From an uncultured Candidatus Peribacteria bacterium (GTDB lineage Bacteria > Patescibacteriota > Gracilibacteria > UBA4473): 48,615 nt of DNA. The DNA is taken from contig CAYWLU010000001.1 in NCBI GenBank assembly GCA_964459435.1, positions 11,151 through 59,765 on the forward strand, in the 5' to 3' direction. Shown here one piece after another: positions 4,348 through 48,326 of this stretch (positions within the stretch are counted from its first letter, which is position 1; each line of letters opens with the position of its first letter). The position numbers and the translations under genes are program-made. The notes beneath the pieces are model-generated. The model saw only the letters and a program-made list of their open reading frames with translations. It was not told the DNA's origin and made no database searches.

Positions 4348-4372
4348 AATCTTCAATCTTCAATCTTCAATT
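4348..4372 (-). repeat. TTGAAGA heptamer array between the ribD stop and the guaA start
   Basis: Plus strand aatcttcaatcttcaatcttcaatt; minus strand AATTGAAGATTGAAGATTGAAGATT, 16 nt upstream of the guaA ATG. Confidence 0.85.
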
Positions 4373-5553: not shown

Positions 5554-5592
5554 TTCATTCTTCATTATTCATTACTCATTATTCATTACTCA
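5554..5592 (-). repeat. Tandem heptamer array TAATGA(A/G) beginning at the ribE stop codon
   Basis: Minus strand reads TGA(stop)G TAATGAA TAATGAG TAATGAA TAATGAA GAATGAA. Confidence 0.85.
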
Positions 5593-6198
5593 ATGCTGAA
5601 CATTGAGTATATATTTTCCTAAAATATCAAATTCTAAGTTAACCAAATCTCCAATCTTTTTGTCAGATAAATTAGTTACTTCCCAAGTATGAGAAATGAT
5701 ACAAGTTTCAAACCAATTTTCATTTAACCCGGGTTCAAAATTTCCAGAACCCGGGTTAAAAATATTAGAAACTGTTAAAGAAATTCCATTTACTGCGATA
5801 GAACCTTTTTCCACAACTAACTTGGCATTTTCTTTACTGAGAGAAATTCTAAACAACCAATAATCTCCTTGTCTTTTTAAATCTAAAATCTTTCCTTTCT
5901 CGTCTATATGACCAGTGACAAAATGACCAGAATTCCGTTCTCCTGTTCTAGCAGATCTTTCTAAATTAACACTGTCTCCTTCTTTTGCTTCCCCGAAAGT
6001 TGTCCTATTCCTCGACTCTTCCATAATCTCCACCTTGAACCAATCTTTGTCCATCTCGACAACCGTTGCGCACATCCCAGAAAGAGCAATCGATTCTCCC
6101 AACCCCAGAGGATCCGTTATATTATAATATAATACAGTAAACAAATTCCCTTTGATTTTCTTTATTTCGCCAGTTGTTTCTACAATTCCAGTAAACAT
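5590..6198 (-). CDS. ribE: Riboflavin synthase (alpha chain)
   Basis: MFTGIVETTGEIKKI start and a duplicated barrel pattern (..GESIALSGMCATVV.., ..GSIAVNGISLTVS..). It carries the family D palindrome in frame. Confidence 0.9.
   Translation of the reverse strand: MFTGIVETTGEIKKIKGNLFTVLYYNITDPLGLGESIALSGMCATVVEMDKDWFKVEIMEESRNRTTFGEAKEGDSVNLERSARTGERNSGHFVTGHIDEKGKILDLKRQGDYWLFRISLSKENAKLVVEKGSIAVNGISLTVSNIFNPGSGNFEPGLNENWFETCIISHTWEVTNLSDKKIGDLVNLEFDILGKYILNVQH
5728..5755. repeat. Family D palindromic element, in frame in ribE
   Basis: Identical 28-mer to 4878-4905, translated in the same frame as PGSGNFEPG. The palindrome extends to ttaaCCCGGG...CCCGGGttaa (5724-5759). Confidence 0.9.
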
Positions 6199-6210
6199 GT
6201 AAATGAATTA

Positions 6211-6237
6211 TCAATTATCAATCTTCAAACTACAAAT
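6211..6237 (-). repeat. Heptamer tract (TTGAAGA/TTTGTAG types) just upstream of the ribE start
   Basis: Plus strand tcaattatcaatcttcaaactacaaat; minus strand atttgtagtttgaagattgataattga. Confidence 0.7.
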
Positions 6238-7192: not shown

Positions 7193-7218
7193 AATTGAAG
7201 ATTGAAAATTGAAGATTG
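7193..7218 (+). repeat. TTGAAGA heptamer array abutting the stop of ORF 7221-7667
   Basis: aattgaagattgaaaattgaagattg. Confidence 0.85.
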
Positions 7219-10280: not shown

Positions 10281-10313
10281 TAATTGAAGATTGAAGATTG
10301 ATAATTGAAGATT
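10281..10313 (+). repeat. TTGAAGA heptamer array abutting the stop of the LCP gene
   Basis: aattgaagattgaagattgataattgaagattt. Confidence 0.85.
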
Positions 10314-11706: not shown

Positions 11707-11803
11707 GTCATTGCGAGTTCGCCATACTTGCCTACCTTGGTGGGGCGAACATGGCAATCTCTTCTTTATGATTATGAGATTGCTTCGCTTTGCTCGCAAT
11801 GAC
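11707..11803. repeat. Family A hairpin repeat overlapping the 5' end of the MurL-like gene
   Basis: GTCATTGCGAG at 11707-11717 and CTCGCAATGAC at 11793-11803. The ATG at 11799 lies inside the right arm. Confidence 0.8.
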
Positions 11804-13178
11804 AACATATGTATTATTCACATTGATGACTCCTATTTACCAAACTTTTATTTTTGAAGATTTTTCTTTTGATCAAGAGAATAAAAAATTAATTCTGAAA
11901 TACTCTCTAGATGAAGAATTGTTTTTCACAGAAGAAGTAATTTTTGATTTTAAGTTTATAGAAAATATTAATAAAAAAGCCCTCCAAAATGCTTTATTTG
12001 GTGTTTGGGTTATGCTTGGAATCTCTTATTTCAAAACTTTTCTTCCTCCTGAGATTAAATTCAAAAAATATGGACTCACTTCTGATCAAGCAAAATTCTT
12101 CCAAAAAACTTGGGAAAAGGGTCTAGGAGAATTCTTTTACCAAAATAAAATCTCCCCAAAAGGAAAAATAAACTTTTCAAGTGATGAAAAATCCGCATTA
12201 ACAAATTCTGTCTCCTTAGCTGTCTCAGGCTCTATTATGCCTCTGGGAGGAGGTAAAGATTCTTTAGTAACCGCCGAAATCTTAAAAGAAAACAATGAAG
12301 ATTTTTCCACTTGGACAGTAGGAGAGTTTCCTTTTCTACAAAATATGGTTGATAAACTAGAAGTTCCACATTTAATGGTTAAGCGTCATATAGATCTAAA
12401 ACTTCTAGATTTAAATAAAAATGGTGCCCTAAATGGACATGTTCCTATTTCGGCTATATTAGCTTTCCTAGGAGTAACAAGTGCTATTCTTACAGGCAAA
12501 AAAAACATCATTCTCTCTAATGAGAATTCTGCGAGTGAACCAACAGTAGAAGATATTAATCATCAGTATTCTAAATCTTTGGAATTCGAAAAAGATTTTC
12601 AAGAATATGTAAAAAGTTTTATCTCACCAGACCTAAATTATTTTTCTTTTCTCCGTCCCCTATCAGAACTAAAAATCGCTCAAATCTTTTGTGAAAAATG
12701 TTTAGATAAATATGAAAAAGACTTTTCTTCCTGTAATCGCAATTTTAAAATCAAAAATCAAAAATCAAAAAATCTAACTTGGTGCGGAGAATGTCCTAAA
12801 TGTGCTTTTGTATTTGCAATCTTTGCCCCGTTTCTAGAAAGAGACAAACTTCTAGCTCTTTTTGGCAAAAATCTTTTTGCAGATAATAATTTAGACCAAA
12901 CTTTTCGAGAACTTCTAGGACTAGAAAAAACGAAACCCTTTGAATGTGTTGGAGAAATAGAAGAAGTAAGAAAGGCTTTAGAAATGTCTAAAGATAAATG
13001 GCCAGAATTATCTAAATTTGATTTCCCTAAACCTAATTTTGATCTAGAAGAACTTAATCCGCATTTGATGCCAGAAAGGTTTGAAAAAATATTTAACCTT
13101 CACATATCCAATATTACAAATATCTGTCATACCGGATTTATTCCGGTATCTAGTCATAAAAATAATGCAAATAATTAA
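11799..13178 (+). CDS. PP-loop (GGGKDS) protein, probable MurL-type UDP-MurNAc-L-Ala-L-Glu epimerase
   Basis: ATP-pyrophosphatase-like motif PLGGGKDSLV and a C-terminal CGECPKC motif. About 460 aa, lying directly upstream of and in the same orientation as a MurD2-like ligase. Start is uncertain (ATG 11799 inside a repeat, or ATG 11826). The last roughly 17 codons come from repeat 13125-13214. Confidence 0.55.
   Translation: MTTYVLFTLMTPIYQTFIFEDFSFDQENKKLILKYSLDEELFFTEEVIFDFKFIENINKKALQNALFGVWVMLGISYFKTFLPPEIKFKKYGLTSDQAKFFQKTWEKGLGEFFYQNKISPKGKINFSSDEKSALTNSVSLAVSGSIMPLGGGKDSLVTAEILKENNEDFSTWTVGEFPFLQNMVDKLEVPHLMVKRHIDLKLLDLNKNGALNGHVPISAILAFLGVTSAILTGKKNIILSNENSASEPTVEDINHQYSKSLEFEKDFQEYVKSFISPDLNYFSFLRPLSELKIAQIFCEKCLDKYEKDFSSCNRNFKIKNQKSKNLTWCGECPKCAFVFAIFAPFLERDKLLALFGKNLFADNNLDQTFRELLGLEKTKPFECVGEIEEVRKALEMSKDKWPELSKFDFPKPNFDLEELNPHLMPERFEKIFNLHISNITNICHTGFIPVSSHKNNANN
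12747..12774 (+). repeat. AAAATCA heptamer tract inside the MurL-like CDS
   Basis: aaaatca aaaatca aaaatca aaaaatc, translated as ..FKIKNQKSKN.. just before the CGECPKC motif. Confidence 0.75.
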
Positions 13179-15303: not shown

Positions 15304-17850
15304 TCAACTTTTCTTTAATTGAAAGATAGTTTCTAAAGCTTCACGAGGTGTAAGTTCTTCTGGATTAATCCTATCTAAAAGCTCATCTGTTTTAGATTTT
15401 TGATGAACAATCTTTTCTTGGTGACGAACGGTAGAAAACAAGTTAGGTTTTCCAGATAATAAATTTTCTGATTCTAGTCTCTTTAATACTTTCCTGGCGT
15501 TTTCAATAACCTTCTGTGGTACACCAGAAGATTCTGCTACATCTATTCCAAAAGAATCTGCTATACCTCCTTTAACTACTCGTCTTAAAAATATAATCCC
15601 CTGTTCACTCTGGGTGGCAGAGACATGGAAGTTTTGGGCCTTAGGTAGACCTTCTATTAACTCCACTAACTCATGGAAATGAGTAGCAAAAAGAGTCTTC
15701 GCTTTAATTTCGTTATGTAGAAATTCAGTAATAGCCCAAGCCAAAGAAATACCATCAAAAGTAGAAGTTCCTCGACCAATCTCATCTAGGATAACAAAAC
15801 TCTTGTCCGTCGCCGCATAAAGAATCCGAGCAGTTTCGGTCATTTCTACAAAAAAAGTAGATTTACCTCCTGCTAAATCATCAGAAGCTCCAACTCTCGT
15901 AAAAATACGATCAAAAACACTGGTCTTCATTTTTTTAGCTGGGACAAAGGATCCTATCTGCGCCAAGAGAATTAAAATCGCATTTTGTCGTAGGAAAGTA
16001 GATTTTCCCGCCATATTTGGCCCCGTAAGCAAATGAAAACGCGAATCCTCTTCCATTATTAAATCATTGGCAATGAAAGTCTCTGTAGATAATTTTTCTA
16101 CTACTGGATGCCATCCTTTTTCTATTTCTAAAGTAGATCCCCCTTCTACTATTTCTGGCTTAGTCCATCTTCCTTTAGAGGCTGTTCTGGTTAGCAGGAA
16201 AAGAGTGTCTAGTTCTGCGATAGCATGAGATGCTTGTTGAATTTTTCCAGAAAACTTGAGAACTTCTTCTCGTAATTCCAAAAACAACCGATGTTCTAAT
16301 TCAAAAGCCCTGCTCTCAGCAGAAAGAACTTTTTCTTCATGGTTAGCAAGTTCTGGCGTAGTAAATCTTTCCGCATTAACTAGCGTCTGACGACGAATCC
16401 AAGAAGTAGGTACAGTTTTAGCTTGAGCCGTAGAAACCTCTAAACAAAAACCAAAATTGCTAGAAAATTTCATCCGTAAATTTTGGATACCTGATTCTTT
16501 TTTTTGTTTATCTAAAAAATCATCCAACCATTTTCTAGAATCTCGAGCCAGTAAACGAAATTCATCTAATTCCACCGAAAAACCCTGTTTAAACATTCCT
16601 CCACCCATTATTTCTAAAGGAGGATTTTCTATTAAAGCCTTTTCTAGTTTCAAAAACAAAGAATTAAGAGAATCTAAATTCTTAACTTTATTTTTCAAAA
16701 AAACCATATTTAAATTTTCACAAGATTTAGATATCTCTGGCAGTACCGCTAAAGAATTACGCAAAAAAGCTAAATCTCGTGCATTACCACGACCAGTAAC
16801 CAAACGAGCTTGAATTCTTTCTAAATCAGCTACTTGCTGAAGATTTTTAGCCAAGATTTTTTGAAAATCTAAGTTATTTAAAATCTCTTCTACTGCTTCC
16901 AATCGCAAATCAATCTTTCTTTTTTCTAACAACGGATTTGCTAGCCAACTTCTAAAAAGTCTCGCCCCCATCGCCGTAAAAGATTTTTCAAAAACACTAT
17001 AAAGAGTGGCACCATCCTGATTCGTCTGAAAAGGATTAAAAATTTCCAAATGCTGAAAAGTTTGTTTATCTAACTGCATAATTTCACTCGTGTCATAACG
17101 AATTAATTTAGCAAGATGAGACAAATCTGTTTTTTGAGTTTCTTTGAGATAATCCAAAATCTGACTAGAGATATGAATTAATAAATAATTATCTTCTAAT
17201 CCCAAAGCCTCTAAATTTTTAAGATTAAAATGATTTTTTAAAACCTCTTCCGCTTTATTTATATCTAATCTCCGCCTAACCGTTATATGCGATCGAGGTA
17301 ATTTCTTACAAAATTCCTTATCTGCAAATAAATCCGTAGAAATTAAAATCTCTCGTGGATCAAGTTTGTAAAGTTCATCAAAAAAAGATAACTCACTGGT
17401 AAACAAACTCGTTTTAAAGCCTCCCGTAGAAAGATCAGCATATGAAAGTGCAAAACATTCTTTATCTAAATCCACAGCCACTAAAAAAGAATTTTCTGCT
17501 GGAATCAAATTACCATTTTCTAACGAAGTCCCAGGAGTGACCACCCGAACTACTTCTCTAGATATTTTTTTAGTAACGGGATCTTCTATTTGTTCGGCAA
17601 TGGCTACTGAATAACCATTTTCTATTAGCTTACTTAAATAATCCGCATGAGCATGATGAGGAAATCCGCACATCGGCATTTCATTCATTGAACCCCGATG
17701 ACGAGCCGTCAATACTATTCCTAAAATCCGAGAAGCAAGCTGAGCATCTTCATAAAACATCTCGTAAAAATCCCCAAGTCGAAAGAACAAAATCGCTTGA
17801 GGATTTTGCGCTTTTAGTTCTGCGTATTGACGTTGAACTGGGGTCGACAT
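15304..17850 (-). CDS. mutS: DNA mismatch repair protein MutS
   Basis: TPVQRQYAELKAQNP..FFRLGDFYEMF N-terminus and Walker A GPNMAGKST. The ATG at 17850 is preferred over the TTG at 17856. Confidence 0.95.
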   Translation of the reverse strand: MSTPVQRQYAELKAQNPQAILFFRLGDFYEMFYEDAQLASRILGIVLTARHRGSMNEMPMCGFPHHAHADYLSKLIENGYSVAIAEQIEDPVTKKISREVVRVVTPGTSLENGNLIPAENSFLVAVDLDKECFALSYADLSTGGFKTSLFTSELSFFDELYKLDPREILISTDLFADKEFCKKLPRSHITVRRRLDINKAEEVLKNHFNLKNLEALGLEDNYLLIHISSQILDYLKETQKTDLSHLAKLIRYDTSEIMQLDKQTFQHLEIFNPFQTNQDGATLYSVFEKSFTAMGARLFRSWLANPLLEKRKIDLRLEAVEEILNNLDFQKILAKNLQQVADLERIQARLVTGRGNARDLAFLRNSLAVLPEISKSCENLNMVFLKNKVKNLDSLNSLFLKLEKALIENPPLEIMGGGMFKQGFSVELDEFRLLARDSRKWLDDFLDKQKKESGIQNLRMKFSSNFGFCLEVSTAQAKTVPTSWIRRQTLVNAERFTTPELANHEEKVLSAESRAFELEHRLFLELREEVLKFSGKIQQASHAIAELDTLFLLTRTASKGRWTKPEIVEGGSTLEIEKGWHPVVEKLSTETFIANDLIMEEDSRFHLLTGPNMAGKSTFLRQNAILILLAQIGSFVPAKKMKTSVFDRIFTRVGASDDLAGGKSTFFVEMTETARILYAATDKSFVILDEIGRGTSTFDGISLAWAITEFLHNEIKAKTLFATHFHELVELIEGLPKAQNFHVSATQSEQGIIFLRRVVKGGIADSFGIDVAESSGVPQKVIENARKVLKRLESENLLSGKPNLFSTVRHQEKIVHQKSKTDELLDRINPEELTPREALETIFQLKKS

Positions 17851-17880
17851 AATCAATTGTCAATTATCAATCTTCAATTA
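17851..17880 (-). repeat. Heptamer tract (TTGAAGA/TTGATAA types) immediately upstream of the mutS ATG
   Basis: Minus strand taattgaagattgataattgacaattgatt, followed by ATG. Confidence 0.7.
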
Positions 17881-17937
17881 TTAGAAAAGAATCAATATCT
17901 TTTTATCGGTTTTGATGAGTTTAGCAAGTGAAAAGCG

Positions 17938-18622: not shown

Positions 18623-19840
18623 ATGAAAATTTTCTTTTGGTGTTGTTTGACCCTTATTATTCCTGGACTTCTCTTCCGAATTCCTGTTGGAGGAGCAGGT
18701 ATTTTAGCTACAGATATTATTCTGCCCGTCTTTGCTTTTATTTGGCTCTTCCAAAAACTCGTTATATCTAGAGAATTTCCTCGCAATTCTTTTATTCGTC
18801 CTGGAATTATTTTCTTGGCTATTGCGTTAATAAGTTTTGTACTAGGAGCAAGCGAACTACTTTTTAAAGAACAAATCTTGTCTTTAGCACATCTTCTTCG
18901 TTTTTCTTCTCTCTTTATTTGGGGCTGGGCTAGTACAGATCTTTTTTATGCAGAACAAAATTCTTTTTGGAAAGGACTATTTTGGATTCTTACTATTGTT
19001 GTTTTGTTAGGTTTAATTCAATTCCGGTTTATTCCTGACATTTCTCGCTGGTCAACGGAAGGTGGTTTAGATCCTCATACTGGAAGATTACTTGGAACTT
19101 GGTTAGATCCGAATTTTATGGCTGGACTCCTAGGATTTAGTCTCCCGCTACTTATTGCCAGATGGTATCAATTCACTTCCAAAAGAATGAAGATTCTTCT
19201 GGGAATCATTATTCTTCTTTTCTTGTGTGCTCTTTTCTTAACCTTTTCTCGAAGTGGATATTTAGCTGGTAGCATAGGACTTTTTATCTTCTTTTTATTT
19301 AAAGATTGGAAAATAATTCTTTTAGGAATTCTTCTTTTGGGAATTGGAATCACAACTAACGAAAGAGCCCAAAAAAGAGTAGGAGAACTAGGTAGTACTG
19401 TTTCTGCTATCGTATTACACGAAACAGATGAAATAGATCCAACAGCTAGTTTGCGTCTCCAAAGCTGGCAAAAAAGTTTTGAACTTTGGCAGAAATATCC
19501 CTTACTTGGTATTGGATATAATACTTATCGTTACAGGGCTGCCGAAGAAGGAATTGTCGATGAAAATTATTTCTCTAGCGGAGGGTCAGATTCTACTCAG
19601 CTAACAATTTTAGTTACTACTGGAATTCTAGGACTTTTGGCTTTCTTATGGTTTATAGGAAAAATAATGTGGATTAATTTTTATAAATTTTTCACTACTA
19701 AAAACGAATTATTTTTGGGACTAGCCTCTGGATTAGTGGCAATCTTTATTCATTCCTTTTTTGTTAATTCCCTACTGTTTCCTCTTATCTTTATGCCGTT
19801 AATTGCCACCGCGGGAATTTTAGAAAACATAAAAAAATGA
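18623..19840 (+). CDS. O-antigen ligase (Wzy_C)-like polytopic membrane protein
   Basis: About 10 TM helices, the motif TFSRSGYLAGSIGL, and a large loop with ..SWQKSFELWQKYPLLGIGYNTY.. ATG at 18623 is preferred over TTG at 18581. Confidence 0.7.
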   Translation: MKIFFWCCLTLIIPGLLFRIPVGGAGILATDIILPVFAFIWLFQKLVISREFPRNSFIRPGIIFLAIALISFVLGASELLFKEQILSLAHLLRFSSLFIWGWASTDLFYAEQNSFWKGLFWILTIVVLLGLIQFRFIPDISRWSTEGGLDPHTGRLLGTWLDPNFMAGLLGFSLPLLIARWYQFTSKRMKILLGIIILLFLCALFLTFSRSGYLAGSIGLFIFFLFKDWKIILLGILLLGIGITTNERAQKRVGELGSTVSAIVLHETDEIDPTASLRLQSWQKSFELWQKYPLLGIGYNTYRYRAAEEGIVDENYFSSGGSDSTQLTILVTTGILGLLAFLWFIGKIMWINFYKFFTTKNELFLGLASGLVAIFIHSFFVNSLLFPLIFMPLIATAGILENIKK

Positions 19841-21618
19841 AAAAAATAGGAATTTCTTTATTTAGCTTTGGAATTATTGGAATACTGGTTTTTGTGTCGG
19901 TTGGAGAAAAAAAAATACCAGAATTAAGCGCCAATATTTTTACTTTAGCAAACCAAGCCAAAGAAGCTGGTCTAGATAAAGAAGCTTGGCAAGAAATATC
20001 AATAGAAGCTAAGAAAATTCCTCGTATTTTCCCCTTATCTCTAATCCGAAAATCATTCTTAGAAACAGAAGAAATTGTTTTAGAAATACACCAATTAAAA
20101 GAAAGTTTCCCCCTTCTCTTCGCTCCACCACTCTCTACCGAGAAAATCTTAGACGAATTCAAATCCCTAGAACGAGTAGATAATCACCTCAAAAAAATCT
20201 CTAAAAATTTAAATAAAATTCCAGATTTTTTACTTACAGAACAACAAAATAAAGAACTAACTCTCGTTCAAGCAAAAATCCGAGTTACTCGTCGCCACTT
20301 AAACGATATCCAAAAATTTAAAAATATCTTTAAACAATTAAGTAAAAAAGAAGAACGAATTCTCGTTCTGCTTCAAAACCAAAATGAACCAAGATCTACA
20401 GGAGGATTTACTGGTAGCGTCCTAAATATTAATTTAGGTAAAGAAACAATCTCGTGGAAATTCTCAGACATCTATAGTTTAGACCGTCTAATTCCCAATG
20501 ATGCGCAACTTCCCGCCCCAGATTTTTTCCATAATTTAAGTCAAACAATATCTCTCAGAGACGCAAACTTTTGGCCAGACTTCCCTACCTCTAGTAATAA
20601 ATATAGAGATTTTTTCGAGAGTATTAATGAACCAGTACCTAATGTGGTTTTAGCTATTAACTTAAATGTTATCGAAGAACTCTTGCTTCTTACTGGACCA
20701 ATTACAATTCCTAAATGGGGTGTAACCGCCAATCATCATAATGTAGATTTAGTCTTACAATTTCTCGTAGAAGCAAAAGTTGCTGGAAGATTTGGTGCTA
20801 AAGAACCTTTACTTTCTTTTGCTGAAGAACTTTTTAAATCTGAAACTATTTCTGAGATTACCACTGACCAATTATTGAATTTTGATTTCTCTAATTTCAT
20901 TGCTCAGAAAAACATCCTCGCTAATTCCCAAAACTCAGAATTACAAAAACTCTTCAATACTTGGCAAATCGACGGACGAGTTCAACAAAAGAAAGATGCT
21001 GACAATTTTCTCTATTTTGATTTCATTTCTGTCGGAGCGAATAAATCAGAAAAATTTGTTTGGACTAAACTCTGGCATGACAGTGAAATAAGTCCTAATG
21101 GAAAAGTAAAAAATTTCGTAGAGATTATTAGAAATCATGCCCTAAAAAACGGAGAAATTTCCGCTCTCTTACAAAACTCTTCTTGGCCAGAAAATGTCGG
21201 GGAACTTTTAAACGACGAAGATTTGCTATGGAAATTAGGAGAAGGACAAAATAGAACCGTTCTTCGTTTATTTGTCCCAAAAAACGCTAAACTTCTTTCA
21301 CAAAAAAGTCCTTCTGGACTTATTACGGAGAATTTCTCGGACGATAAGAAATTTAAGATTTTTGAGATTCCAATGTTTGTCGTTCCCACCGAAAAAATAA
21401 AAATACAGTTAGAATACGAAACTAAACTAGAACGAGGAAGTAATAATTGGCGTCCATACTTCTTGCAACTTGTAGGAACCCCAGGACGAGATAAAACCTC
21501 CTTTCTATCTACTATTTCTACCGCTAAAAACGGAAAATTCACCGCGGAAACTAAAAATATTGGAAAACCTCAAAACCTAATAAATGATGATTTTAGGGCG
21601 CTAATTGAGTTTGAATAA
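19837..21618 (+). CDS. DUF4012-like membrane-anchored protein
   Basis: N-terminal TM helix and a QNQNEPRSTGGFTGS motif, as recalled for DUF4012. It overlaps the upstream stop by 4 nt. Confidence 0.6.
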   Translation: MKKIGISLFSFGIIGILVFVSVGEKKIPELSANIFTLANQAKEAGLDKEAWQEISIEAKKIPRIFPLSLIRKSFLETEEIVLEIHQLKESFPLLFAPPLSTEKILDEFKSLERVDNHLKKISKNLNKIPDFLLTEQQNKELTLVQAKIRVTRRHLNDIQKFKNIFKQLSKKEERILVLLQNQNEPRSTGGFTGSVLNINLGKETISWKFSDIYSLDRLIPNDAQLPAPDFFHNLSQTISLRDANFWPDFPTSSNKYRDFFESINEPVPNVVLAINLNVIEELLLLTGPITIPKWGVTANHHNVDLVLQFLVEAKVAGRFGAKEPLLSFAEELFKSETISEITTDQLLNFDFSNFIAQKNILANSQNSELQKLFNTWQIDGRVQQKKDADNFLYFDFISVGANKSEKFVWTKLWHDSEISPNGKVKNFVEIIRNHALKNGEISALLQNSSWPENVGELLNDEDLLWKLGEGQNRTVLRLFVPKNAKLLSQKSPSGLITENFSDDKKFKIFEIPMFVVPTEKIKIQLEYETKLERGSNNWRPYFLQLVGTPGRDKTSFLSTISTAKNGKFTAETKNIGKPQNLINDDFRALIEFE

Positions 21619-21740: not shown

Positions 21741-21779
21741 TATTTAATACTTAATACATTATACTTAATACATCATACT
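21741..21779. repeat. Heptamer array (TAC(T/A)TAA type) reaching the miaB stop
   Basis: tatttaa tacttaa tacatta tacttaa tacatca tac. Confidence 0.75.
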
Positions 21780-23104
21780 TTTTCCCCTTCCAACACGTAA
21801 CCATTCCGACCAGTTATTTTTACTGGTACTTCTTTTCCAAAAAGATCCTCCTCAGAATCAAACCAAGTTTCGAAAAGCTCTCTAGTTCTTCCTGAATTTC
21901 TAAATTTCCCATTAGGTAATTTTTCAGAAGTTTCCACCAGTACTTCTAAAGTCTTTCCAATACTTTTTTCCCTGTTATCAAAAGAAGTTTCTTTGATGAT
22001 TTTATCTAAATCATGAAATCGTTTCTTTTTTATATTCAAAGACACGAATTCATCTTTCATTTCGGCTGCCTTTGTCCCTCTTCTCGGAGAAAAAATAGCA
22101 GTATAGGAGAAATCAAATTTCATTCTTCTAGCAAAATCACAAAGTTCTGCAAAATCTTCTTCTGTTTCTCCTGGAAATCCAACAATAATATCTGTAGCAA
22201 TAGTGCAACCTGGAACCTTCTTTCTTATTTTAGCTATCTTTTCTTCATATTCTTCTATCGTATAATTACGATTCATTTTCTTTAAAACCCGATTAGATCC
22301 ATGTTGGGCTGGTAAATGCACATACGCACAATTAGTCTTCATACCAGCCAAAGTATCTATCATCTCATCCGTAAAATCCTGAGGATGATGAGACACAAAT
22401 CTAAGCCTAGAAAGACCTTTTTTTGCTAATTTATCTATCTCTCGTAAGAGAACAGGAAAACATTTTTTGCCATTTTCTGTATATGAATTCACATTTTGTC
22501 CGAGCAAAGTAATCTCTAAAGCACCATTTTTTACATGCTTTTCACATTCTTTTATGATGTCTTCTATTGGACGAGAAATTTCTCTACCTCGCGTAAAAGG
22601 AACAATACAGTAAGAACAGAACTTATCGCATCCTTGCATAATAGGAACTAAAGCTTGCGACTTATTTGTTATCCGCGGATTAATTTGAAAATAATTCTCC
22701 ACTGATCCTGCTCGAAAATTACTGACAAATTTTTCCAAATCTAAATCTGCGAAGTAAATTTCCAGTAACTTCGGCAATCTAGCCGTATCTTCGATTCTAA
22801 AAACCAAATCTATCGGATCGTACTTGAGGAGTTTATCTTTAGAATTAGACTTATCCCCTGTTTGTCTAACCATACAACCTGTAACAGCAATAATAGCTTC
22901 TGGATGATCTTTCTTATATTGAACAATGAACCCATACGCCTTATCTTCTGACTTCTGACGCACAGAACAAGTGTTGACCACTAGTAAATCTGCTGTTTCA
23001 TTTTTAGATTCTTTTAAATCACATAAATCTAAAACAGTAGCCACTCTTTCTGAATCAGAATAATTCATCTGGCAACCAAAAGTCTGAATCTGATAAGTAA
23101 ACAT
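21773..23104 (-). CDS. miaB: tRNA-i6A37 methylthiotransferase MiaB
   Basis: MFTYQIQTFGCQMNYSDSE, radical-SAM CDKFCSYCIVP, and a C-terminal TRAM-like region. Confidence 0.9.
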   Translation of the reverse strand: MFTYQIQTFGCQMNYSDSERVATVLDLCDLKESKNETADLLVVNTCSVRQKSEDKAYGFIVQYKKDHPEAIIAVTGCMVRQTGDKSNSKDKLLKYDPIDLVFRIEDTARLPKLLEIYFADLDLEKFVSNFRAGSVENYFQINPRITNKSQALVPIMQGCDKFCSYCIVPFTRGREISRPIEDIIKECEKHVKNGALEITLLGQNVNSYTENGKKCFPVLLREIDKLAKKGLSRLRFVSHHPQDFTDEMIDTLAGMKTNCAYVHLPAQHGSNRVLKKMNRNYTIEEYEEKIAKIRKKVPGCTIATDIIVGFPGETEEDFAELCDFARRMKFDFSYTAIFSPRRGTKAAEMKDEFVSLNIKKKRFHDLDKIIKETSFDNREKSIGKTLEVLVETSEKLPNGKFRNSGRTRELFETWFDSEEDLFGKEVPVKITGRNGYVLEGEKV

Positions 23105-25240: not shown

Positions 25241-25270
25241 TATACTTAATACGAAATACTAAATACTGCA
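25241..25270. repeat. Heptamer array (NNAATAC type) just upstream of the tatD start
   Basis: gttatac ttaatac gaaatac taaatac. Confidence 0.75.
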
Positions 25271-25274
25271 TTTT

Positions 25275-26129
25275 ATGCTCATTGCTGACACTCACACTCA
25301 CCTCCACTTCTCTTCTTTTGATAAAGACCGAGAAGAAGTTATTACTCGTTGTCAAAAGACAGGAGTTAATTTGCAAATCCAAATTGGTTGCGATGAATTG
25401 TCTTCTCTTTCTGCCTTAAAACTCGCTAAAAAACATGATAACTTTTATGCCACCCTTGGAATCCATCCCTCTGATGTTTTAGATTGTTTTAATCCAGATA
25501 AACTTTTTCGAAGTCAGGGATACGAAAATTACAAATTACAAAACAAAAATTTCGACGACCTTTTTGCTTGGTTCGAGAAACTTGCCACAGAAAATCCCAC
25601 AAAGATTGTTGGCTTCGGAGAAACTGGTTTAGATCTCTACCACGAAAACTCACCAAAAATATATAAAATTCAAAAAGAAGTTTTTTTGAGTCACTTGAAG
25701 TTAGCGAAAAAATTCCAAAAGCCATTAGTTATTCATGGTCGCAATGCTAATGAAAAAATGAAATCTTTTTTTACAGAAAATATAAAAGCTGGAGAAGTTA
25801 ATGGAGTTATTCACTGTTTTTGTGAGGATTTAGACTACGGTAAATTCTTTGTCGAGAAATTTGGGTTCTTTTTGGGAATTGGCGGAATTCTCACTTACCC
25901 TAATGCCGAAAAAACAAGAGAAGCTATTAAAGAAATTCCTCTAGAATTTCTTATCACCGAAACAGATTCTCCCTTCCTTGTACCTCAAAGCCTAAGAAAA
26001 ACTGTAAAACGCAACGAATCATCTTTTCTACCAGAAGTAATAGAACTAATTGCCGATCTTAAAAAAATCCCGACAGAAAAATGTGCTGAAATACTTTTTT
26101 CGAACGCAAAAAAATTATTCCAAATTTAA
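25275..26129 (+). CDS. tatD: TatD-family metal-dependent hydrolase
   Basis: LIADTHTHL start motif, ..GETGLDLYH.., ..VIHGRNA.., ..ITETDSPF.. Confidence 0.9.
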   Translation: MLIADTHTHLHFSSFDKDREEVITRCQKTGVNLQIQIGCDELSSLSALKLAKKHDNFYATLGIHPSDVLDCFNPDKLFRSQGYENYKLQNKNFDDLFAWFEKLATENPTKIVGFGETGLDLYHENSPKIYKIQKEVFLSHLKLAKKFQKPLVIHGRNANEKMKSFFTENIKAGEVNGVIHCFCEDLDYGKFFVEKFGFFLGIGGILTYPNAEKTREAIKEIPLEFLITETDSPFLVPQSLRKTVKRNESSFLPEVIELIADLKKIPTEKCAEILFSNAKKLFQI

Positions 26130-41787: not shown

Positions 41788-43491
41788 TTACCCTAATTTT
41801 TTAGTCATATATGTAGACTTAAGTTCATAACCAAACTTCCGATAGTATTCTCGAGTCCCTACTCCAGCAATAATAGTCATCTTTTTAAGTCCCCATTCCT
41901 CTTTTGCAATTCGTTCTGCCTCAAAAAGAAGCTTTTTACCAAGTCCGCGATGCTGTCCTACTCCTGCCTCTTTGCCCACAGATATTTCTGTACCGTAAGA
42001 ATGAACTTCTCGTACTAAAGCAGCATCTTGTAAGACAGATTTAAAGGAAATATATTTTTTACTACTTGGTTTGCGTAAACGAAGTAAAGCAAAAATATGT
42101 TTTTCATCTTCTGTTTCAAATGATAAAAATACTTCTTGTCCCCCAGAAGCTTCATAGTCTCGTCTTTTCAAAACTGGTACTCCTAAGTTTTTATTAGTTG
42201 AAAACCCTACTTCCCGACATCTAATACACTGGCAAGACCAAGTTTCAGGAACATCTTTCATATCACTTCCTAATAATTCTTTTAGTTTCTTGGGTTGATC
42301 TTTCATAATCTGCCGTAGATTAGAAAACTTTACTCCATCTAGAACATCAGAAATAGGAATATCTCTCATAAGTCGCATAATCCTCGTCCAAGGTGGAACA
42401 AAAGTTTTGAATTGTAATAGTAATTTTACTAATTCTTTATCCAACATCGGCTGAAAATCACCTTTTCTCCACCAATTCTCCAATTCTGAATTCGCCAACA
42501 CCTGACAAGGATAAATCTTGATAAAATCTGGACGAGCATCTGAACTACTAAAAACCTCTTTCATCCATTCAAGATCTTTTTCAGCATTAGACCCCGGAAG
42601 TCCAGGCATTAAATGCCAACAAATCTTAAATCCAAAATCTCGCATTAACTGCATAGCTTTAGCAACATCTTTCCTAGTATGCCCCCGTTTAGTTAGTTTT
42701 TGCACTTCATCATCTAAGGTTTGCACCCCTATTTCTATCCGTGTACAACCAAGTTTACGCATCCTAACTAACTCCTCTTCGGTAATAAAGTCTGGTCTAG
42801 TCTCTAGAGTTAATCCAATGATTCTATGTTCTGCTGTTTCATTAATTTTCTGTGCCTCAGTTAAATTTTTTGAAGTTTGAGAGTTTGTAGTTTGTAGTTT
42901 GAAATTTATAGTTTGTAGTTTGTAGTTTGAAGATTGAAGATTGGAATGGTTCGCCGCATCAAAAACTCGTTTCACATACCAACTTTGATATTTTTTAGGT
43001 AAAAAAGACCAAGTCCCTCCCATAACAATCACTTCTAATTTGGAAGTAGGGTGTCCAGAATCTTTTAAAGCCGCAATTCTAGATTCTACCTGCCGAAAAG
43101 GATGAAATTTATTCCGTAAAGCACGAGCTGCAGCCGGTTGCGAAGAAAGATAACTCTTCGGCATCCTATCCTCTAGGGGGCAATACACGCACTTACCGGG
43201 GCATGGATATGCTTTAGTGAGAATCCCGATAGGAGAAACGCCAGAAACTGTTCTAACCGCTCTTTTTTTAAAAAGATTCTCTAAATCTTCTGGCAACTCT
43301 TTGTCACCAATAACAGCAATTAGATCTCTATTTAAAATCGGAGGTATTCCTGTACGAGCCGAAAAATTTCTTTTCTTTTTTTCCAATTCATCTCTAGTTT
43401 TCGGTGGAGTTTTACAAAGTTCATCTAAAAACTTCTCCACTTCTATTGGATTTTCTACCTGCTGTCGGACACCAAAATTTTTCTTTTTCAT
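41788..43491 (-). CDS. elp3: Elp3-type radical SAM / GNAT acetyltransferase (bacterial Elongator protein 3 homolog)
   Basis: Radical-SAM cluster motif CPGKCVYCP, ..GLTLETRPD.., and a C-terminal GNAT domain (..HRGLGKKLLFEAERIA..). The ATG at 43491 overlaps the upstream stop as ATGA. It carries a roughly 75-nt heptamer insert. Confidence 0.85.
   Translation of the reverse strand: MKKKNFGVRQQVENPIEVEKFLDELCKTPPKTRDELEKKKRNFSARTGIPPILNRDLIAVIGDKELPEDLENLFKKRAVRTVSGVSPIGILTKAYPCPGKCVYCPLEDRMPKSYLSSQPAAARALRNKFHPFRQVESRIAALKDSGHPTSKLEVIVMGGTWSFLPKKYQSWYVKRVFDAANHSNLQSSNYKLQTINFKLQTTNSQTSKNLTEAQKINETAEHRIIGLTLETRPDFITEEELVRMRKLGCTRIEIGVQTLDDEVQKLTKRGHTRKDVAKAMQLMRDFGFKICWHLMPGLPGSNAEKDLEWMKEVFSSSDARPDFIKIYPCQVLANSELENWWRKGDFQPMLDKELVKLLLQFKTFVPPWTRIMRLMRDIPISDVLDGVKFSNLRQIMKDQPKKLKELLGSDMKDVPETWSCQCIRCREVGFSTNKNLGVPVLKRRDYEASGGQEVFLSFETEDEKHIFALLRLRKPSSKKYISFKSVLQDAALVREVHSYGTEISVGKEAGVGQHRGLGKKLLFEAERIAKEEWGLKKMTIIAGVGTREYYRKFGYELKSTYMTKKLG
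42869..42943. repeat. Roughly 10-unit heptamer tract (TTTGTAG / TTGAAGA types) inside elp3
   Basis: tttgaagtttgagagtttgtagtttgtagtttgaaatttatagtttgtagtttgtagtttgaagattgaagattg, read on the minus strand as NLQSSNYKLQTINFKLQTTNSQTSK. Confidence 0.85.
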
Positions 43492-44102
43492 TGTCTCGCC
43501 CGTAGTTTCCACTCTCCCCCTAAAAATTCAAGATAAAAACCACCTGTTTCTTTAATAGAAACCAAAGGAATCTTGTTTTCTTTGGCTAACTTCTCTACTT
43601 TTTTTGCTGGTTTCCTCTCTCCCAAATACAAAATACCCTTGTCTGGCAAAGGAAAAAAATCTGGGAAATCATTAGTTTGTAAAACCCAAAAATCTGAAGA
43701 AAAGGAAATAGATAATGCTCGCAAATTCATTAATTCTTCTTCTGTTATTTTTCCTATCAACCAAAATCTTTGGCTATCAGATTCAAAATTAAAAATATTT
43801 TTAGAAAGAACGCTCAACCTAAAATCTTCCCCTTGGAATTCTTTATTCTCTTTTAGTTCTTCTATTCTTAGAATTTCAGAATGAGAAAAATAAGGCTGAA
43901 GAGAACGAAAAAGGCTTTTAATGGAACTATTTTCCGTATCACCAAAACTCAAAATTTGTTTACTTGGGGTTTGAATTAAAACCACATTTTTTTCTGCCAA
44001 AATCCTTAATTCCTGTTCTTTAGATAGAGAAAATTCTCTCACCAAAAAAAGTATTAGGATTACTCCCAAAACTCCAAGTCCAATCTTAAATATATTCTTC
44101 AT
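43488..44102 (-). CDS. Membrane-anchored protein, possibly a degenerate ComEC-type metallo-beta-lactamase-like domain
   Basis: One N-terminal TM helix. ..NVVLIQTPSKQILSFGD.., ..RFWLIGKITEEEL.. and ..GILYLGERKP..VEKLAKENKIPLVSIKETGGFYLEF follow the order of conserved blocks of the ComEC C-terminal MBL domain, but the His motifs are missing. The assignment is weak. Confidence 0.4.
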   Translation of the reverse strand: MKNIFKIGLGVLGVILILFLVREFSLSKEQELRILAEKNVVLIQTPSKQILSFGDTENSSIKSLFRSLQPYFSHSEILRIEELKENKEFQGEDFRLSVLSKNIFNFESDSQRFWLIGKITEEELMNLRALSISFSSDFWVLQTNDFPDFFPLPDKGILYLGERKPAKKVEKLAKENKIPLVSIKETGGFYLEFLGGEWKLRARQ

Positions 44103-47911: not shown

Positions 47912-47943
47912 AATTGAAGATTGTAGATTGAAGATTGAAGATT
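47912..47943 (+). repeat. TTGAAGA heptamer array abutting the stop of ORF 47946-48326
   Basis: aattgaagattgtagattgaagattgaagatt. Confidence 0.85.
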
Positions 47944-47945
47944 TT

Positions 47946-48326
47946 TTAGGTGTTTTCTCCCGGAAAAGTACTCCGTCTTAATCCTCCAAATCCTCTTTGT
48001 TCTGCTTGTTCAGATAAAGCCATTAAAAATTGTTCTGCCCTGATAATATCTTGGTCATCTTTAAATTCTTTACTAGCGGTGTCACCCGAAAGATCTGCTA
48101 AATCTAATTGTGCAAGACTTTCCTCTACCCCTCGTTCTGCTTTTGTTATTCTTTCTGCTTCCTGAATTTCGTTCCAACCTTTCCCATATGGATTTTCTTT
48201 AGGGGCTATATTTAAATTAACCAGAGATTCTTTAGTAGATTTTTCTATCTTATCTACTTCTTTAGATCCCTCTAAATAATCATCTACGCTTCGCCAGTTA
48301 GGTTTTTCAAAACTCATTTTTATCAA
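47946..48326 (-). CDS. Acidic hypothetical protein (126 aa)
   Basis: ATG ORF, Glu/Lys-rich; no family recognised. Confidence 0.45.
   Translation of the reverse strand: MIKMSFEKPNWRSVDDYLEGSKEVDKIEKSTKESLVNLNIAPKENPYGKGWNEIQEAERITKAERGVEESLAQLDLADLSGDTASKEFKDDQDIIRAEQFLMALSEQAEQRGFGGLRRSTFPGENT

What the first reader, a model, noticed from the sequence alone, without database searches (positions are those of the whole stretch)
42869..42943. Roughly 75-nt heptamer minisatellite embedded in frame in elp3
Seen: about 10 units of TTTGTAG/TTGAAGA-type heptamers lie inside the Elp3 CDS. They are read on the stop-free strand as NLQSSNYKLQTINFKLQTTNSQTSK, between ..VFDAANHS and ..LTEAQKINETAEHRIIGLTLETRPD. 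The same DNA motif forms intergenic arrays at 4348, 7193, 10281, 17851 and 47912. A 7-nt period is not a multiple of 3, so any change in copy number other than by multiples of 3 units would frameshift the gene. From memory of Elp3 alignments, this position is a short linker before the conserved NE..R..G.T.ETRPD block.
Basis: partly seen in the sequence, partly recalled or inferred. Interest (0 to 1): 0.7.

Follow-up and report, generated by a model that had tools for sequence, protein, structure and literature searches.

The report
In-frame heptamer repeat tract in Elp3
A 75-base run of 7-base repeats, of the same kind that fills the gaps between genes in this small candidate-phylum bacterium, sits in frame inside the tRNA-modifying enzyme Elp3 and adds a floppy 22-residue loop; it is a real, tolerated "coding microsatellite", not a switch or an artefact.

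Summary
Tandem Repeats Finder places a period-7 array at 42869-42943 (10.6 copies, 84% match) inside a minus-strand Elp3 gene. It encodes a 22-residue insert (aa 190-211). The flanking segment is a fixed 46 aa in archaeal and most bacterial Elp3. AlphaFold models the insert as a disordered loop between two radical-SAM helices.

The array belongs to a genome-wide heptanucleotide repeat load:
- About 25 period-7 arrays lie in 48.6 kb, against none in shuffles.
- Most fill the spaces just after stop codons.
- Same-family arrays also sit in frame in GuaA, RibD and probably TatD.

Relatives carry homologous or independent heptamer arrays at the same Elp3 loop, with different units and lengths. One sister lineage has none, in Elp3 or anywhere else sampled. 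Two further assemblies of the same species carry the identical tract.

My best reading is a slippage-born repeat tolerated in a permissive loop and kept in frame by selection. In-frame heptamer repeats are already known (E. coli NeuO; TAACTGA repeats in Beggiatoaceae), so I rate this a new member of a known kind. I found no prior description in Gracilibacteria/Peribacteria.

The parts
41788..43512 (-). Elp3 gene (tRNA U34 cm5-modification radical-SAM/GNAT enzyme). The ORF runs from GTG at 43512. The database protein P0001 starts at the ATG at 43491 (567 aa).
   Evidence: Pfam Radical_SAM, Radical_SAM_C and Acetyltransf_1. PDB Elp3 hits at E 1e-95 to 1e-122. The CxxxCxxC motif (C104, C108, C111) and the QHRGLGKKL motif are invariant in alignment A1. 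The AlphaFold model matches 6ia8, 5l7l and 8ptx_C with target-normalised TM-scores of 0.80-0.93.
42869..42943 (-). Degenerate heptanucleotide tandem array, about 10.6 units, AAWCTWC on the coding strand, with one 8-nt unit (AAACTCTC). It has no G on the sense strand.
   Evidence: Tandem Repeats Finder. Unit register. No arrays at this period in shuffles. The RNA is unstructured: MFE -2.6 kcal/mol, z 0.35. The tract is identical in L070 and L071.
42880..42945 (-). The 22 codons (aa 190-211, SNLQSSNYKLQTINFKLQTTNS) that are extra relative to the 46-aa baseline linker. The array runs 11 nt further, into the conserved Q-T-S-K codons.
   Evidence: A 22-residue gap against M. infernus Elp3. Baseline segment length of 46 aa in archaeal and most bacterial loci. 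pLDDT below 50 and coil for residues 191-210, between helices 173-188 and 217-224.
3090..3119 (-). Same-family array in frame in GuaA (GMP synthase), encoding ESSIFKLQSSN.
   Evidence: The array-less relative L068 reads EELSITKD at this position. An identical 28-nt string lies about 60 codons further downstream in the GuaA of L067.
5306..5339 (-). Same-family array in frame in RibD, encoding KLRSSNYNLQSL. It is an 11-aa insertion in the deaminase beta-hairpin.
   Evidence: Gap against T. maritima RibD 2hxv. Relatives show TSNNKLQTTKK, LQTNKEQT or no insert at the same site.
25526..25542 (+). Short array (AAATTAC x2.4) in frame in TatD, encoding NYKLQN, within about 21 extra residues.
   Evidence: This is a probable insertion only, because the array is short.
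12747..12771 (+). Perfect (AAAATCA)x3.6 array in frame in ORF 11790..13178, encoding KIKNQKSKN. The ORF is syntenic with a MurL-like gene in L067.
   Evidence: Not compared with orthologues.
4348..4371 (.). Intergenic (AATCTTC)x3.4 array between the RibD stop and the GuaA start.
   Evidence: An identical array lies at the orthologous spacer in L067; it is absent in L068.
7194..7218 (.). Intergenic array of the family, starting 2 nt after the stop codon of the minus-strand pilin-like gene.
   Evidence: L067 has a different unit (AAGGGAC) at the same position and L068 has none.
10283..10313 (.). Intergenic array of the family, starting directly after the stop codon of the LytR-family gene.
   Evidence: L067 has (ATTAGCT)n at the same position and L068 has none.
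47913..47943 (.). Intergenic array of the family, starting directly after the stop codon of ORF 47946..48326.
   Evidence: It is about 1.5 units long in L058, and L059 has a different unit there.
17852..17881 (.). Diverged member of the family (TCAATTG, TCAATTA, TCAATCT) at the 5' end of ORF 15304..17856.
6206..6222 (.). Short member (AATTATC x2.4) lying 7 nt upstream of the start of ORF 5590..6198.

Best explanation
The tract is a coding microsatellite. It is a degenerate 7-bp simple-sequence repeat from the same genome-wide heptanucleotide repeat load that pads the 3' untranslated spacers of this Gracilibacteria/Peribacteria-group (CPR) genome. It has become fixed, in frame, in a permissive surface loop of Elp3.

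**How it works (shown or inferred):**
1. Heptamer arrays arise and change length in this lineage, most likely by slipped-strand mispairing or template switching during replication. This step is inferred.
2. Arrays survive wherever they do no harm. That means between a stop codon and the next element, and at the few places inside proteins that tolerate extra residues. The distribution is shown.
3. Inside genes a filter applies. The unit must be stop-free in the frame read, and the net inserted length must be a multiple of 3 nt. It also helps if the residues are polar and loop-friendly: AAWCTWC read in its three phases gives N/K-L-Q-S/T-S/T-N/I-F/Y. The outcome is shown.
4. Elp3 simply carries 22 extra disordered residues between two outer helices of the radical-SAM barrel. 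Its catalytic motifs are intact (shown). The insert probably has no function of its own (inferred).
5. Point substitutions and an 8-nt unit have broken the tract into runs of at most 2.9 perfect units. It should therefore slip rarely, and it behaves as a stable allele. Sequence identity across three assemblies is shown.
For: **Insert location.** The insert has precise boundaries against a 46-aa baseline that is conserved from archaea to bacteria. AlphaFold gives pLDDT below 50 and coil for residues 191-210, flanked by confident helices. The model superposes on solved Elp3 structures.

**Genome-wide load.** About 25 period-7 arrays lie in 48.6 kb, and shuffles gave none under the strict score. 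Sixteen of the 20 arrays with at least 3 copies lie outside coding sequence, although 87% of the window is coding.

**Other in-frame members.** Arrays of the same family also sit in frame in GuaA and RibD, and a short tract sits in TatD. Each is read in a stop-free frame on the coding strand.

**Elp3 site in relatives** (coding-strand units):
- L058: AAACTCTC followed by (AAACTTC)x4.
- L059, L060 and L061: alternating AAACTAC and AAACTTC.
- L002: a decayed version of the array.
- L069: perfect (AATCTTC)x3.9.
- L006, L003, L018 and L036: unrelated heptamer units at the same site.
- L006: the same unit at two separate Elp3 sites.

**Link to genome load.** Among the closest relatives the Elp3 tract goes with a high genome load. 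The window, L058, L059 and L002 have 3-6 period-7 arrays per 10 kb. The JAIPIW lineage (L001, L068) and L062 have essentially none and have the bare 46-aa linker, a bare RibD hairpin and a bare GuaA. Its 3' spacers are 25, 29, 15 and 1 nt, against 139, 172, 62 and 171 nt in L067.

**Stability.** The tract is identical in three assemblies of the species. L059, L060 and L061 also agree with one another.
Against: - Slippage itself was not observed, because no reads were available.
- The common insert length of 10 aa is shared by five lineages whose units differ. Free slippage does not obviously predict that; it hints at a length constraint or at conversion-like homogenisation.
- An identical 28-nt composite (CAATCTTCAAACTTCAATCTTCAAATAA) sits at two different positions of GuaA in two genomes that are 90% identical in protein. 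Different units also occupy the same post-stop position in close relatives. Both facts fit copying or a position-specific process better than simple in-place slippage.
- The neutrality of the peptide is inferred, not tested.
Confidence: 0.7

Rival explanations
1. Contingency locus. The 7-bp tract is a phase-variation switch that turns Elp3 (and so wobble-uridine tRNA modification) ON and OFF by slippage, as the AAGACTC heptanucleotide repeat does for NeuO in E. coli K1.
For: Any gain or loss of a single unit frameshifts and truncates Elp3 at residue 192 or 213. Some relatives carry 3.9-4.6 perfect units (L069; L058). NeuO shows that the mechanism exists for a 7-nt unit inside a coding sequence (PMC13001214).
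Against: - The window tract has at most 2.9 perfect units and 84% unit identity. NeuO has 3-53 perfect units at the 5' end of its gene.
- All 10 or more array-bearing Elp3 genes recovered are in frame.
- Three assemblies of the species are identical, and so are L059, L060 and L061.
- The same kind of tract sits in GuaA, RibD and TatD, where ON/OFF switching makes little sense.
Confidence: 0.07
2. Functional element. Either the insert peptide is a selected Elp3 feature (a docking or flexible tRNA-contact loop), or the G-free unstructured RNA tract is a binding platform for a heptamer-register RNA-binding protein. Such a protein, for example a cold-shock-type protein, might also recognise the 3'UTR arrays.
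For: An insert of about 10 aa is retained at this site across lineages down to 68% nucleotide identity. The arrays of the family that follow stop codons share the orientation of the coding ones. The sense RNA has no G and no structure. MacGregor 2015 proposed post-transcriptional regulators for TAACTGA heptamer repeats (PMC4679880).
Against: - The peptide varies with the DNA unit, not independently of it.
- The insert is modelled as disordered.
- It is absent from archaeal, eukaryotic and most bacterial Elp3, and from the JAIPIW sister lineage, which lacks all arrays.
- Intergenic arrays at one orthologous position carry unrelated units in close relatives. That argues against sequence-specific recognition.
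Confidence: 0.1
3. Copy-and-paste origin. The tract was not grown in place from native codons. It was copied from a pre-existing array elsewhere in the genome by template switching, ectopic conversion or an unknown tiny mobile repeat, as Rickettsia palindromic elements or cyanobacterial small dispersed repeats enter genes. This concerns origin and is compatible with the tract now being a neutral passenger.
For: - One unit family has 10 members in 48.6 kb, with recurring edge variants (AATTATC at one end, AATTAA at the other).
- An identical 28-nt composite lies at non-orthologous GuaA positions in the window and in L067.
- L006 has the same unit at two Elp3 sites.
Against: - No conserved element ends, inverted repeats, hairpin or target duplication were found.
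- The 3' end of the Elp3 array merges into the conserved Q-T-S-K codons (CAA ACT TCA AAA). That is what growth in place from a native AAACTTC would give.
- With only two or three unit variants, a shared order of four units is not very improbable, at roughly 1 in 8 to 1 in 27.
Confidence: 0.2
4. Assembly or annotation artefact: a collapsed or chimeric repeat, or a pseudogene.
For: The window comes from a metagenome-type assembly, and repeats can be mis-assembled.
Against: - The tract is only 75 nt, shorter than a typical sequencing read.
- It keeps the frame of a full-length Elp3 with all motifs present.
- It is identical in two other assemblies.
- Homologous tracts occur in relatives from independent projects.
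Confidence: 0.01

Closest known systems
NeuO O-acetyltransferase heptanucleotide repeat (5'-AAGACTC-3') of the E. coli K1 CUS-3 prophage
   Same: It is a 7-nt tandem repeat inside a coding sequence. It is translated in all three phases into a 7-residue peptide repeat, and full-length protein is made only when the total stays in frame (PMC13001214).
   Different: NeuO has 3-53 perfect units at the 5' end and slips readily. About 66% of sequenced genomes are OFF, and the gene controls a surface trait. Here the tract is degenerate, lies mid-gene in a housekeeping enzyme, is always in frame, and is identical across assemblies.
TAACTGA heptamer direct repeats of Beggiatoaceae, cyanobacteria and Bacteroidetes (MacGregor 2015, PMC4679880)
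   Same: Many short heptamer arrays lie close to start or stop codons across the genome. A minority lie inside ORFs, only in the stop-free orientation. One encodes LSVINYQLS in a variable surface loop of an RNA polymerase beta'-like protein. Close strains differ by indels in 7-nt steps.
   Different: Those genomes have one favoured unit; here many units coexist. Those arrays lie mostly just upstream of start codons; here most follow stop codons. The lineage differs (CPR). Here the ORF-internal copies sit in conserved enzymes at sites shared with relatives.
Cyanobacterial STRR heptamers and GGGNATC repeats of Xanthomonas and Nostoc (Rehm 2015, PMC4692102); excess of heptanucleotide repeats among long bacterial simple-sequence repeats (Mrazek 2007, as cited in both papers)
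   Same: They have a 7-nt period, are enriched in non-coding DNA, and tend to lie within 50 bp of stop codons. A polymerase-slippage preference for 7 nt has been proposed.
   Different: Those units are G-rich and form quadruplexes, and they are under-represented on coding strands. Here the units are A/T/C-rich and the sense strand of the coding copies lacks G.
Rickettsia palindromic elements inserted in frame in protein genes (Ogata et al. 2000; from my own knowledge, not checked here)
   Same: A genome-specific repeat is tolerated in frame in conserved proteins, at surface-exposed positions, without destroying function.
   Different: Those elements are 100-150 bp dispersed palindromic units with conserved sequence. 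Here the repeats are tandem 7-nt units with no palindrome.

Membership tests
Elp3 (radical-SAM/GNAT tRNA U34 modification enzyme) | A radical-SAM domain with the CxxxCxxC cluster motif, plus the Radical_SAM_C domain. | tested here: met
   Pfam PF04055 at 1.5e-21 and PF16199 at 4.1e-20. C104, C108 and C111 are invariant in alignment A1.
Elp3 (radical-SAM/GNAT tRNA U34 modification enzyme) | A C-terminal GNAT acetyl-CoA domain and the overall Elp3 fold. | tested here: met
   PF00583 at 3e-4. The QHRGLG motif is invariant. Foldseek target-normalised TM-scores of 0.80-0.93 to 6ia8, 5l7l and 8ptx_C.
Simple-sequence (tandem) repeat, coding microsatellite | Head-to-tail copies of a short unit, more than chance would give. 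| tested here: met
   Tandem Repeats Finder gives 10.6 copies at 84% match. Twenty shuffles gave 0 arrays of this period.
Simple-sequence (tandem) repeat, coding microsatellite | Copy number differs between related genomes. | tested here: met
   The linker between N188 and the conserved xSKxL block is 24 aa in the window, 12 aa in L058-L061 and L002, and 2 aa in L001 and L062 (the whole MGGT..ETRPD segment is 68, 56 and 46 aa; L069 is also 56). Units are homogenised differently in each lineage.
Simple-sequence (tandem) repeat, coding microsatellite | Length change by replication slippage. | not testable with these tools
   No reads or mutation-accumulation data were available. Only consensus sequences were compared.
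Phase-variable contingency locus (NeuO type) | A long tract of perfect units. | tested here: not met
   The longest perfect runs are 16-20 nt, at most 2.9 units. NeuO has 3-53 units.
Phase-variable contingency locus (NeuO type) | Length polymorphism, including out-of-frame alleles, within and between populations. | tested here: not met
   Three assemblies of the species are identical. L059, L060 and L061 are identical. Every array-bearing relative is in frame. This holds at consensus level only; minor variants were not testable.
Phase-variable contingency locus (NeuO type) | It controls a surface or host-interaction trait. | tested here: not met
   The gene is a cytoplasmic tRNA-modification enzyme. 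Sister tracts lie in GuaA, RibD and TatD.
Genome-wide bacterial heptamer direct repeats (TAACTGA / STRR type) | Many short 7-nt arrays, mostly intergenic and close to gene ends. | tested here: met
   About 25 arrays lie in 48.6 kb, and most lie within 0-16 nt of a stop or start codon.
Genome-wide bacterial heptamer direct repeats (TAACTGA / STRR type) | ORF-internal copies occur only in the stop-free orientation. | tested here: met
   Each in-CDS array is read in a stop-free frame on the coding strand. The pure-unit arrays (GuaA, RibD, the (AAAATCA) array, and the Elp3 arrays of L058, L059 and L069) are stop-free in all three frames on that strand and carry stops on the opposite strand.
Genome-wide bacterial heptamer direct repeats (TAACTGA / STRR type) | The specific unit sequence (TAACTGA, or the STRR units CCCCAGT, TTGGTCA, CAACAGT). 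| tested here: not met
   The units here are AATCTTC/AAACTAC, AAGTATT, TAATGAR, AGCTAAT, CTAAAAA and others.
In-frame mobile palindromic element (Rickettsia RPE type) | A palindromic, hairpin-forming unit of about 100-150 bp with conserved ends. | tested here: not met
   The fold has MFE -2.6 kcal/mol and z 0.35, with no pairing in the tract. No conserved flanks were found among family members.
In-frame mobile palindromic element (Rickettsia RPE type) | Insertion in frame at surface positions of conserved proteins. | tested here: met
   The Elp3 loop is modelled as disordered. The RibD beta-hairpin shows a gap against 2hxv.

The most novel reading that the evidence does not exclude
This clade of Gracilibacteria/Peribacteria-group CPR bacteria may have an active, lineage-specific process that creates and replaces 7-bp tandem arrays at defined places: directly after stop codons and in permissive protein loops. 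A sister lineage (the JAIPIW MAG) lacks this process or has lost it. If so, the in-frame tracts in Elp3, RibD, GuaA and TatD are by-products of a dedicated mechanism or of a heptamer-register nucleic-acid-binding system, rather than of ordinary polymerase slippage. The contrast between lineages with and without arrays would then offer a direct comparative handle on why heptanucleotide repeats are the commonest long simple repeats in bacteria.
Probability: 0.15. Interest if true: 0.7.

Novelty: new member of a known kind. Interest (0 to 1): 0.4.

Why it matters
The case shows how raw repeat DNA becomes protein sequence in a very small genome. A slippage-prone 7-bp repeat, which by its length ought to be poisonous inside genes, has been domesticated as a loop in four or five housekeeping enzymes. 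Lineages at successive stages can be compared:
- a perfect array (L069);
- an interrupted array (the window);
- a decayed array (L002);
- no array (L001/L062).

It also warns annotators that such low-complexity inserts in CPR proteins are repeat-derived, not functional motifs.

The syntenic pair of array-rich and array-free sister genomes (FLOH01 against JAIPIW01) is a natural experiment for finding what drives heptamer repeat formation in bacteria. The papers read here (PMC4692102, PMC4679880) treat that as an open question.

Tried and rejected
- **Metagenome scan.** Searching with the Elp3 protein found only 4 loci and no new close relative.
- **Exact look-up of P0001.** It was not on record. 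Neighbouring proteins were used instead, and that worked.
- **P0011.** This relative has a 33-aa repeat-like insert, but no DNA could be fetched for it.
- **Rfam.** A search of the whole window found only the two tRNAs.
- **RNA folding of the tract.** No structure was found, so a hairpin or element reading was dropped.
- **Flanks of family members.** I looked for conserved element ends or target duplications and found none beyond unit-level variants.
- **Local inversion in GuaA.** I considered whether the window's GuaA array is an inversion of the purine-rich array seen in L067. The units do not match as exact complements (CTTCAAT against CTTCATT), so I did not pursue it.
- **Literature.** Searches for heptamer repeats in Gracilibacteria/Peregrinibacteria found nothing. 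The known Gracilibacteria hypervariable repeat is a 9-mer PTD repeat and is unrelated.
- **Cluster look-up.** It gave no organism names.
- **Model coordinates.** They are not exposed, so solvent exposure of the loop rests on pLDDT, secondary structure and alignment gaps only.
Full report

Yes. Tandem Repeats Finder reports a period-7 array at exactly 42869-42943, with 10.6 copies, 84% matches and score 78. It also reports a period-28 row with score 105. Under a strict self-match score, periods 7 and 14 give 6 and 4 arrays in the window and period 8 gives one. Twenty dinucleotide-preserving shuffles give none at these periods.

The array lies in ORF 41788..43512 on the minus strand. This ORF is an intact Elp3:
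- It matches Pfam Radical_SAM, Radical_SAM_C and GNAT.
- It matches solved archaeal, bacterial and eukaryotic Elp3 structures at E 1e-95 to 1e-122.

On the coding strand the tract reads CCATTCC AATCTTC AATCTTC AAACTAC AAACTAC AAACTAT AAATTTC AAACTAC AAACTAC AAACTCTC AAACTTC AAAAAAT.

Two independent assemblies of the same species (L070 from ENA, L071 from Logan) each differ from the window by 1 mismatch in about 1300 nt. Both carry the identical tract, so it is not an assembly artefact.

**2. Where does it sit in the protein?**

Against M. infernus Elp3 the query has a clean 22-residue gap-insert between DAANH and QTSKNLTEAQKINETA. The segment between the MGGT strand and ETRPD is 46 aa in every archaeal locus where the segment was found and in most bacterial ones. 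It is 68 aa in the window. The insert is therefore aa 190-211, which is window 42880-42945. The DNA array runs 11 nt further, into the conserved Q-T-S-K codons.

An AlphaFold model built on 34 homologues has pTM 0.77. Residues 191-210 have pLDDT below 50 and no secondary structure. They lie between confident helices 173-188 and 217-224 of the radical-SAM domain. The model superposes on 6ia8, 5l7l and human ELP3 8ptx_C with target-normalised TM-scores of 0.80-0.93. The cluster cysteines and the acetyl-CoA motif are invariant.

**3. The tract is one of many.**

The window holds about 25 period-7 arrays with many different units: AATCTTC/AAACTAC, AAGTATT, TAATGAR, AGCTAAT, CTAAAAA and others. Of the 20 arrays with at least 3 copies, 16 lie outside coding sequence, although 87% of the window is coding. 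Most lie within 0-16 nt of a stop or start codon.

The AATYWTC family alone has 10 members:
- Three start 0-2 nt after the stop codons of minus-strand genes (7197, 10293, 47923).
- Three lie upstream of start codons in the opposite orientation (4341, 6206, 17855).
- Three are in frame in genes.

The in-frame members and related tracts are:
- Elp3.
- GuaA, 3090-3119, encoding ESSIFKLQSSN.
- RibD, 5306-5339, encoding KLRSSNYNLQSL, an 11-aa insertion in a beta-hairpin relative to T. maritima RibD.
- A short tract (NYKLQN) inside about 21 extra residues of TatD.
- A perfect (AAAATCA)x3.6 array in frame in ORF 11790..13178.

Each in-CDS array is read in a stop-free frame on the coding strand. The pure-unit arrays are stop-free in all three frames on that strand, and the opposite strand carries TGA or TAG.

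**4. Relatives.**

The closest genomes are labelled Candidatus Gracilibacteria, Peribacteria or Altimarinota. The window reads with the standard code. The Elp3 loop in relatives looks like this (coding strand):

| Locus | Elp3 identity to window | Sequence at the loop |
|---|---|---|
| L058 | 90% (protein) | CAAAC AAACTCTC (AAACTTC)x4 |
| L059, L060, L061 | 90% (protein) | AAACTCTC AAACTAC AAACTTC AAACTAC AAACTTC |
| L002 | 73% (protein) | decayed AAACTCTC AAACTAC AAATTAT AAACCAC GAACTTC |
| L069 | 68% (nucleotide) | perfect (AATCTTC)x3.9 |
| L001, L062 | 81-82% (protein) | bare 46-aa linker |

The window exceeds the 90% relatives by 36 nt, which is five heptamers plus 1 nt. The frame is kept by the 8-nt unit and a 1-nt difference at the 5' edge, not by steps of three units.

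More distant lineages carry unrelated heptamer units at the same loop:
- L006: AATTGGC.
- L003: AGAACAA and GAAAATT.
- L018: AAGTATT and ATACYTA.
- L036: heptamer periodicity, unit not examined.

L006 has its unit at a second Elp3 site as well.

A neighbour-joining tree places the array-less P0004 (L062) lineage inside a clade whose other members all carry the NSQ..-type insert (L001 has the same bare linker). That favours one gain and one loss, but the tree is only a distance tree.

**5. Presence tracks genome load.**

Among the closest relatives the Elp3 tract goes with a high genome load. Flanks of the window, L058, L059 and L002 have 3-6 period-7 arrays per 10 kb. L001 and L062 have none. 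More distant array-bearers such as L003 have few arrays in their flanks, so the link is not universal.

Two loci syntenic with window 1-17 kb make the contrast direct:
- L067 comes from FLOH01000190, the same contig as L058. It has about 20 arrays in 21 kb.
- L068 comes from JAIPIW01, the same MAG as L001. It has two trivial arrays.

The array-free genome also has a bare RibD hairpin and a bare GuaA. Its 3' spacers are 25, 29, 15 and 1 nt, against 139, 172, 62 and 171 nt in L067. Alignment of orthologous spacers shows arrays inserted between the stop codon and a conserved AT-rich palindrome that L068 also has. At some positions the window and FLOH carry different units in the same place: AATCTTC-type against ATTAGCT after LytR, and against AAGGGAC after the pilin-like gene. 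The RibD-GuaA spacer array, by contrast, is identical in both.

**6. Mechanism.**

My best reading, at about 0.7 confidence, is a slippage-born simple-sequence repeat that persists where it is harmless.
- Inside genes, only arrays with stop-free, polar-coding units and a net in-frame length survive.
- Read in its three phases, AAWCTWC gives N/K-L-Q-S/T-S/T-N/I-F/Y.
- The tract is now interrupted, with at most 2.9 perfect units. Three datasets carry the same sequence, so it behaves as a stable allele.

The anatomy, distribution, variation and stability are shown. Slippage and neutrality are inferred.

Some facts do not fit simple in-place slippage:
- Five lineages share a 10-aa insert length while their units differ.
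- Units are perfectly homogenised within lineages that are 68% identical in nucleotide sequence.
- An identical 28-nt composite lies at two different GuaA positions in the window and L067.
- Units are replaced at fixed post-stop positions.

These suggest conversion-like copying or a position-specific process. I carry that as a rival for origin (0.2) and as the novel case (0.15).

**7. Rivals.**

- *Phase-variation switch.* A NeuO-like switch is logically possible, since a change of one unit truncates Elp3 at residue 192 or 213. It fails the defining features: there is no long perfect tract, no polymorphism or out-of-frame alleles, the gene is a housekeeping gene, and sibling tracts lie in biosynthetic enzymes.
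- *Functional peptide or RNA platform.* This is not excluded, but several things argue against it. The peptide follows the DNA unit. The loop is disordered. The RNA is G-free and unstructured. The insert is dispensable in a sister lineage and in all non-CPR Elp3.
- *Artefact.* This is excluded.

**8. Comparison with what is known.**

- In-CDS heptanucleotide repeats that must stay in frame are known from NeuO (PMC13001214).
- Genome-wide heptamer arrays near gene ends, with a few ORF-internal copies in stop-free orientation, are described for TAACTGA repeats. One of those lies in a surface loop of a beta'-like protein (PMC4679880).
- GGGNATC and STRR heptamers lie within 50 bp of stop codons. 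A general excess of heptanucleotide repeats in bacteria has been noted, with a polymerase-slippage explanation proposed (PMC4692102).
- Rickettsia palindromic elements are the classic case of a selfish repeat tolerated in frame. This point is from my own knowledge.

I found no description of heptamer arrays in Gracilibacteria/Peribacteria in the held library.

**Verdict.** This is a new member of a known kind. Its useful extras are repeated occupation of one Elp3 loop by different units, and an array-free sister lineage. I score interest at 0.4.

Noticed in passing
window 2350, 7173, 10257, 17940, 27893, 45186, 47875 (also 6119; 1-mismatch copies at 35163 and 40414): The 12-nt palindrome ATATTATAATAT occurs 8 times exactly and twice more with 1 mismatch, against 1.9 expected from shuffles. 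Most copies lie in intergenic spacers. Several are the centre of longer AT-only hairpins, for example GCATTATATTATAATATAATGC near 47870. It is conserved at orthologous spacers in L058, L067 and the array-free L068. It could be a two-way -10-like promoter box or an AT-rich terminator. The heptamer arrays sit between it and the stop codons.
   Followed up: partly
window 7194-7218 and 10283-10313 against L067 8646-8676 and 5682-5720: At the same post-stop positions, two genomes that are about 89% identical in Elp3 nucleotide sequence carry heptamer arrays with unrelated units. The window has the AATCTTC type where L067 has AAGGGAC or ATTAGCT, and the array-free L068 has nothing there. The position is conserved while the unit is not, which simple slippage does not explain.
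   Followed up: partly
window 3086-3113 (-) and L067 12497-12524 (+): An identical 28-nt composite array, CAATCTTCAAACTTCAATCTTCAAATAA, lies in frame at two different positions of GuaA, about 60 codons apart, in two orthologues that are 90% identical. Both encode IFKLQSSNK, and neither site is filled in L068.
   Followed up: partly
window, L058, L059, L067, L002 and L069 (49 intergenic arrays): Of 49 intergenic heptamer arrays, 33 contain stop codons on both strands. About 24% would be expected for random heptamers of this base composition. Examples are TAATGAR, AGCTAAT and CTAAAAA. Imperfect units inflate the observed figure, so the excess is not calibrated.
   Followed up: partly
window 21618-21654 and 21744-21780; also 23199-23231 and 25242-25267: Arrays of a second family occur as an inverted pair: (AAGTATT/ATGTATT)n and its complement (AATACTT)n. 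They flank the spacer between convergent genes 19837..21618 and 21773..23104, so each gene's transcript would carry the same-sense array just after its stop codon.
   Followed up: no
Elp3 and RibD relatives: alignment A1 columns 90-106 and 476-580; alignment A3 columns 290-400: Other relatives carry in-frame inserts of a different kind at other variable sites. The peptides include SPNLSQGERNNW, PSPQPSPRGRG, PLPQGERSASFPSLQSSPAGGEGSG and KREL-EGDF. These look like translated GC-rich dispersed repeats. Some Elp3 genes are interrupted or fused: P0021 and P0062 contain a DUF559 domain, and P0110 and P0119 contain HAD domains.
   Followed up: no
L006 3856-3885 and 4572-4602: One Peribacteria Elp3 carries the same heptamer unit (AATTGNC) in frame at two separate sites. 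These encode LAIGNCQFSN and LPIANCQFPN. Its close relative P0015 has neither.
   Followed up: partly
L070 and L072 (ENA ERZ27316756): In this independent assembly of the same species the contigs break inside Elp3, between about residues 58 and 119. That is upstream of the repeat tract, not at it. The cause is unknown.
   Followed up: no
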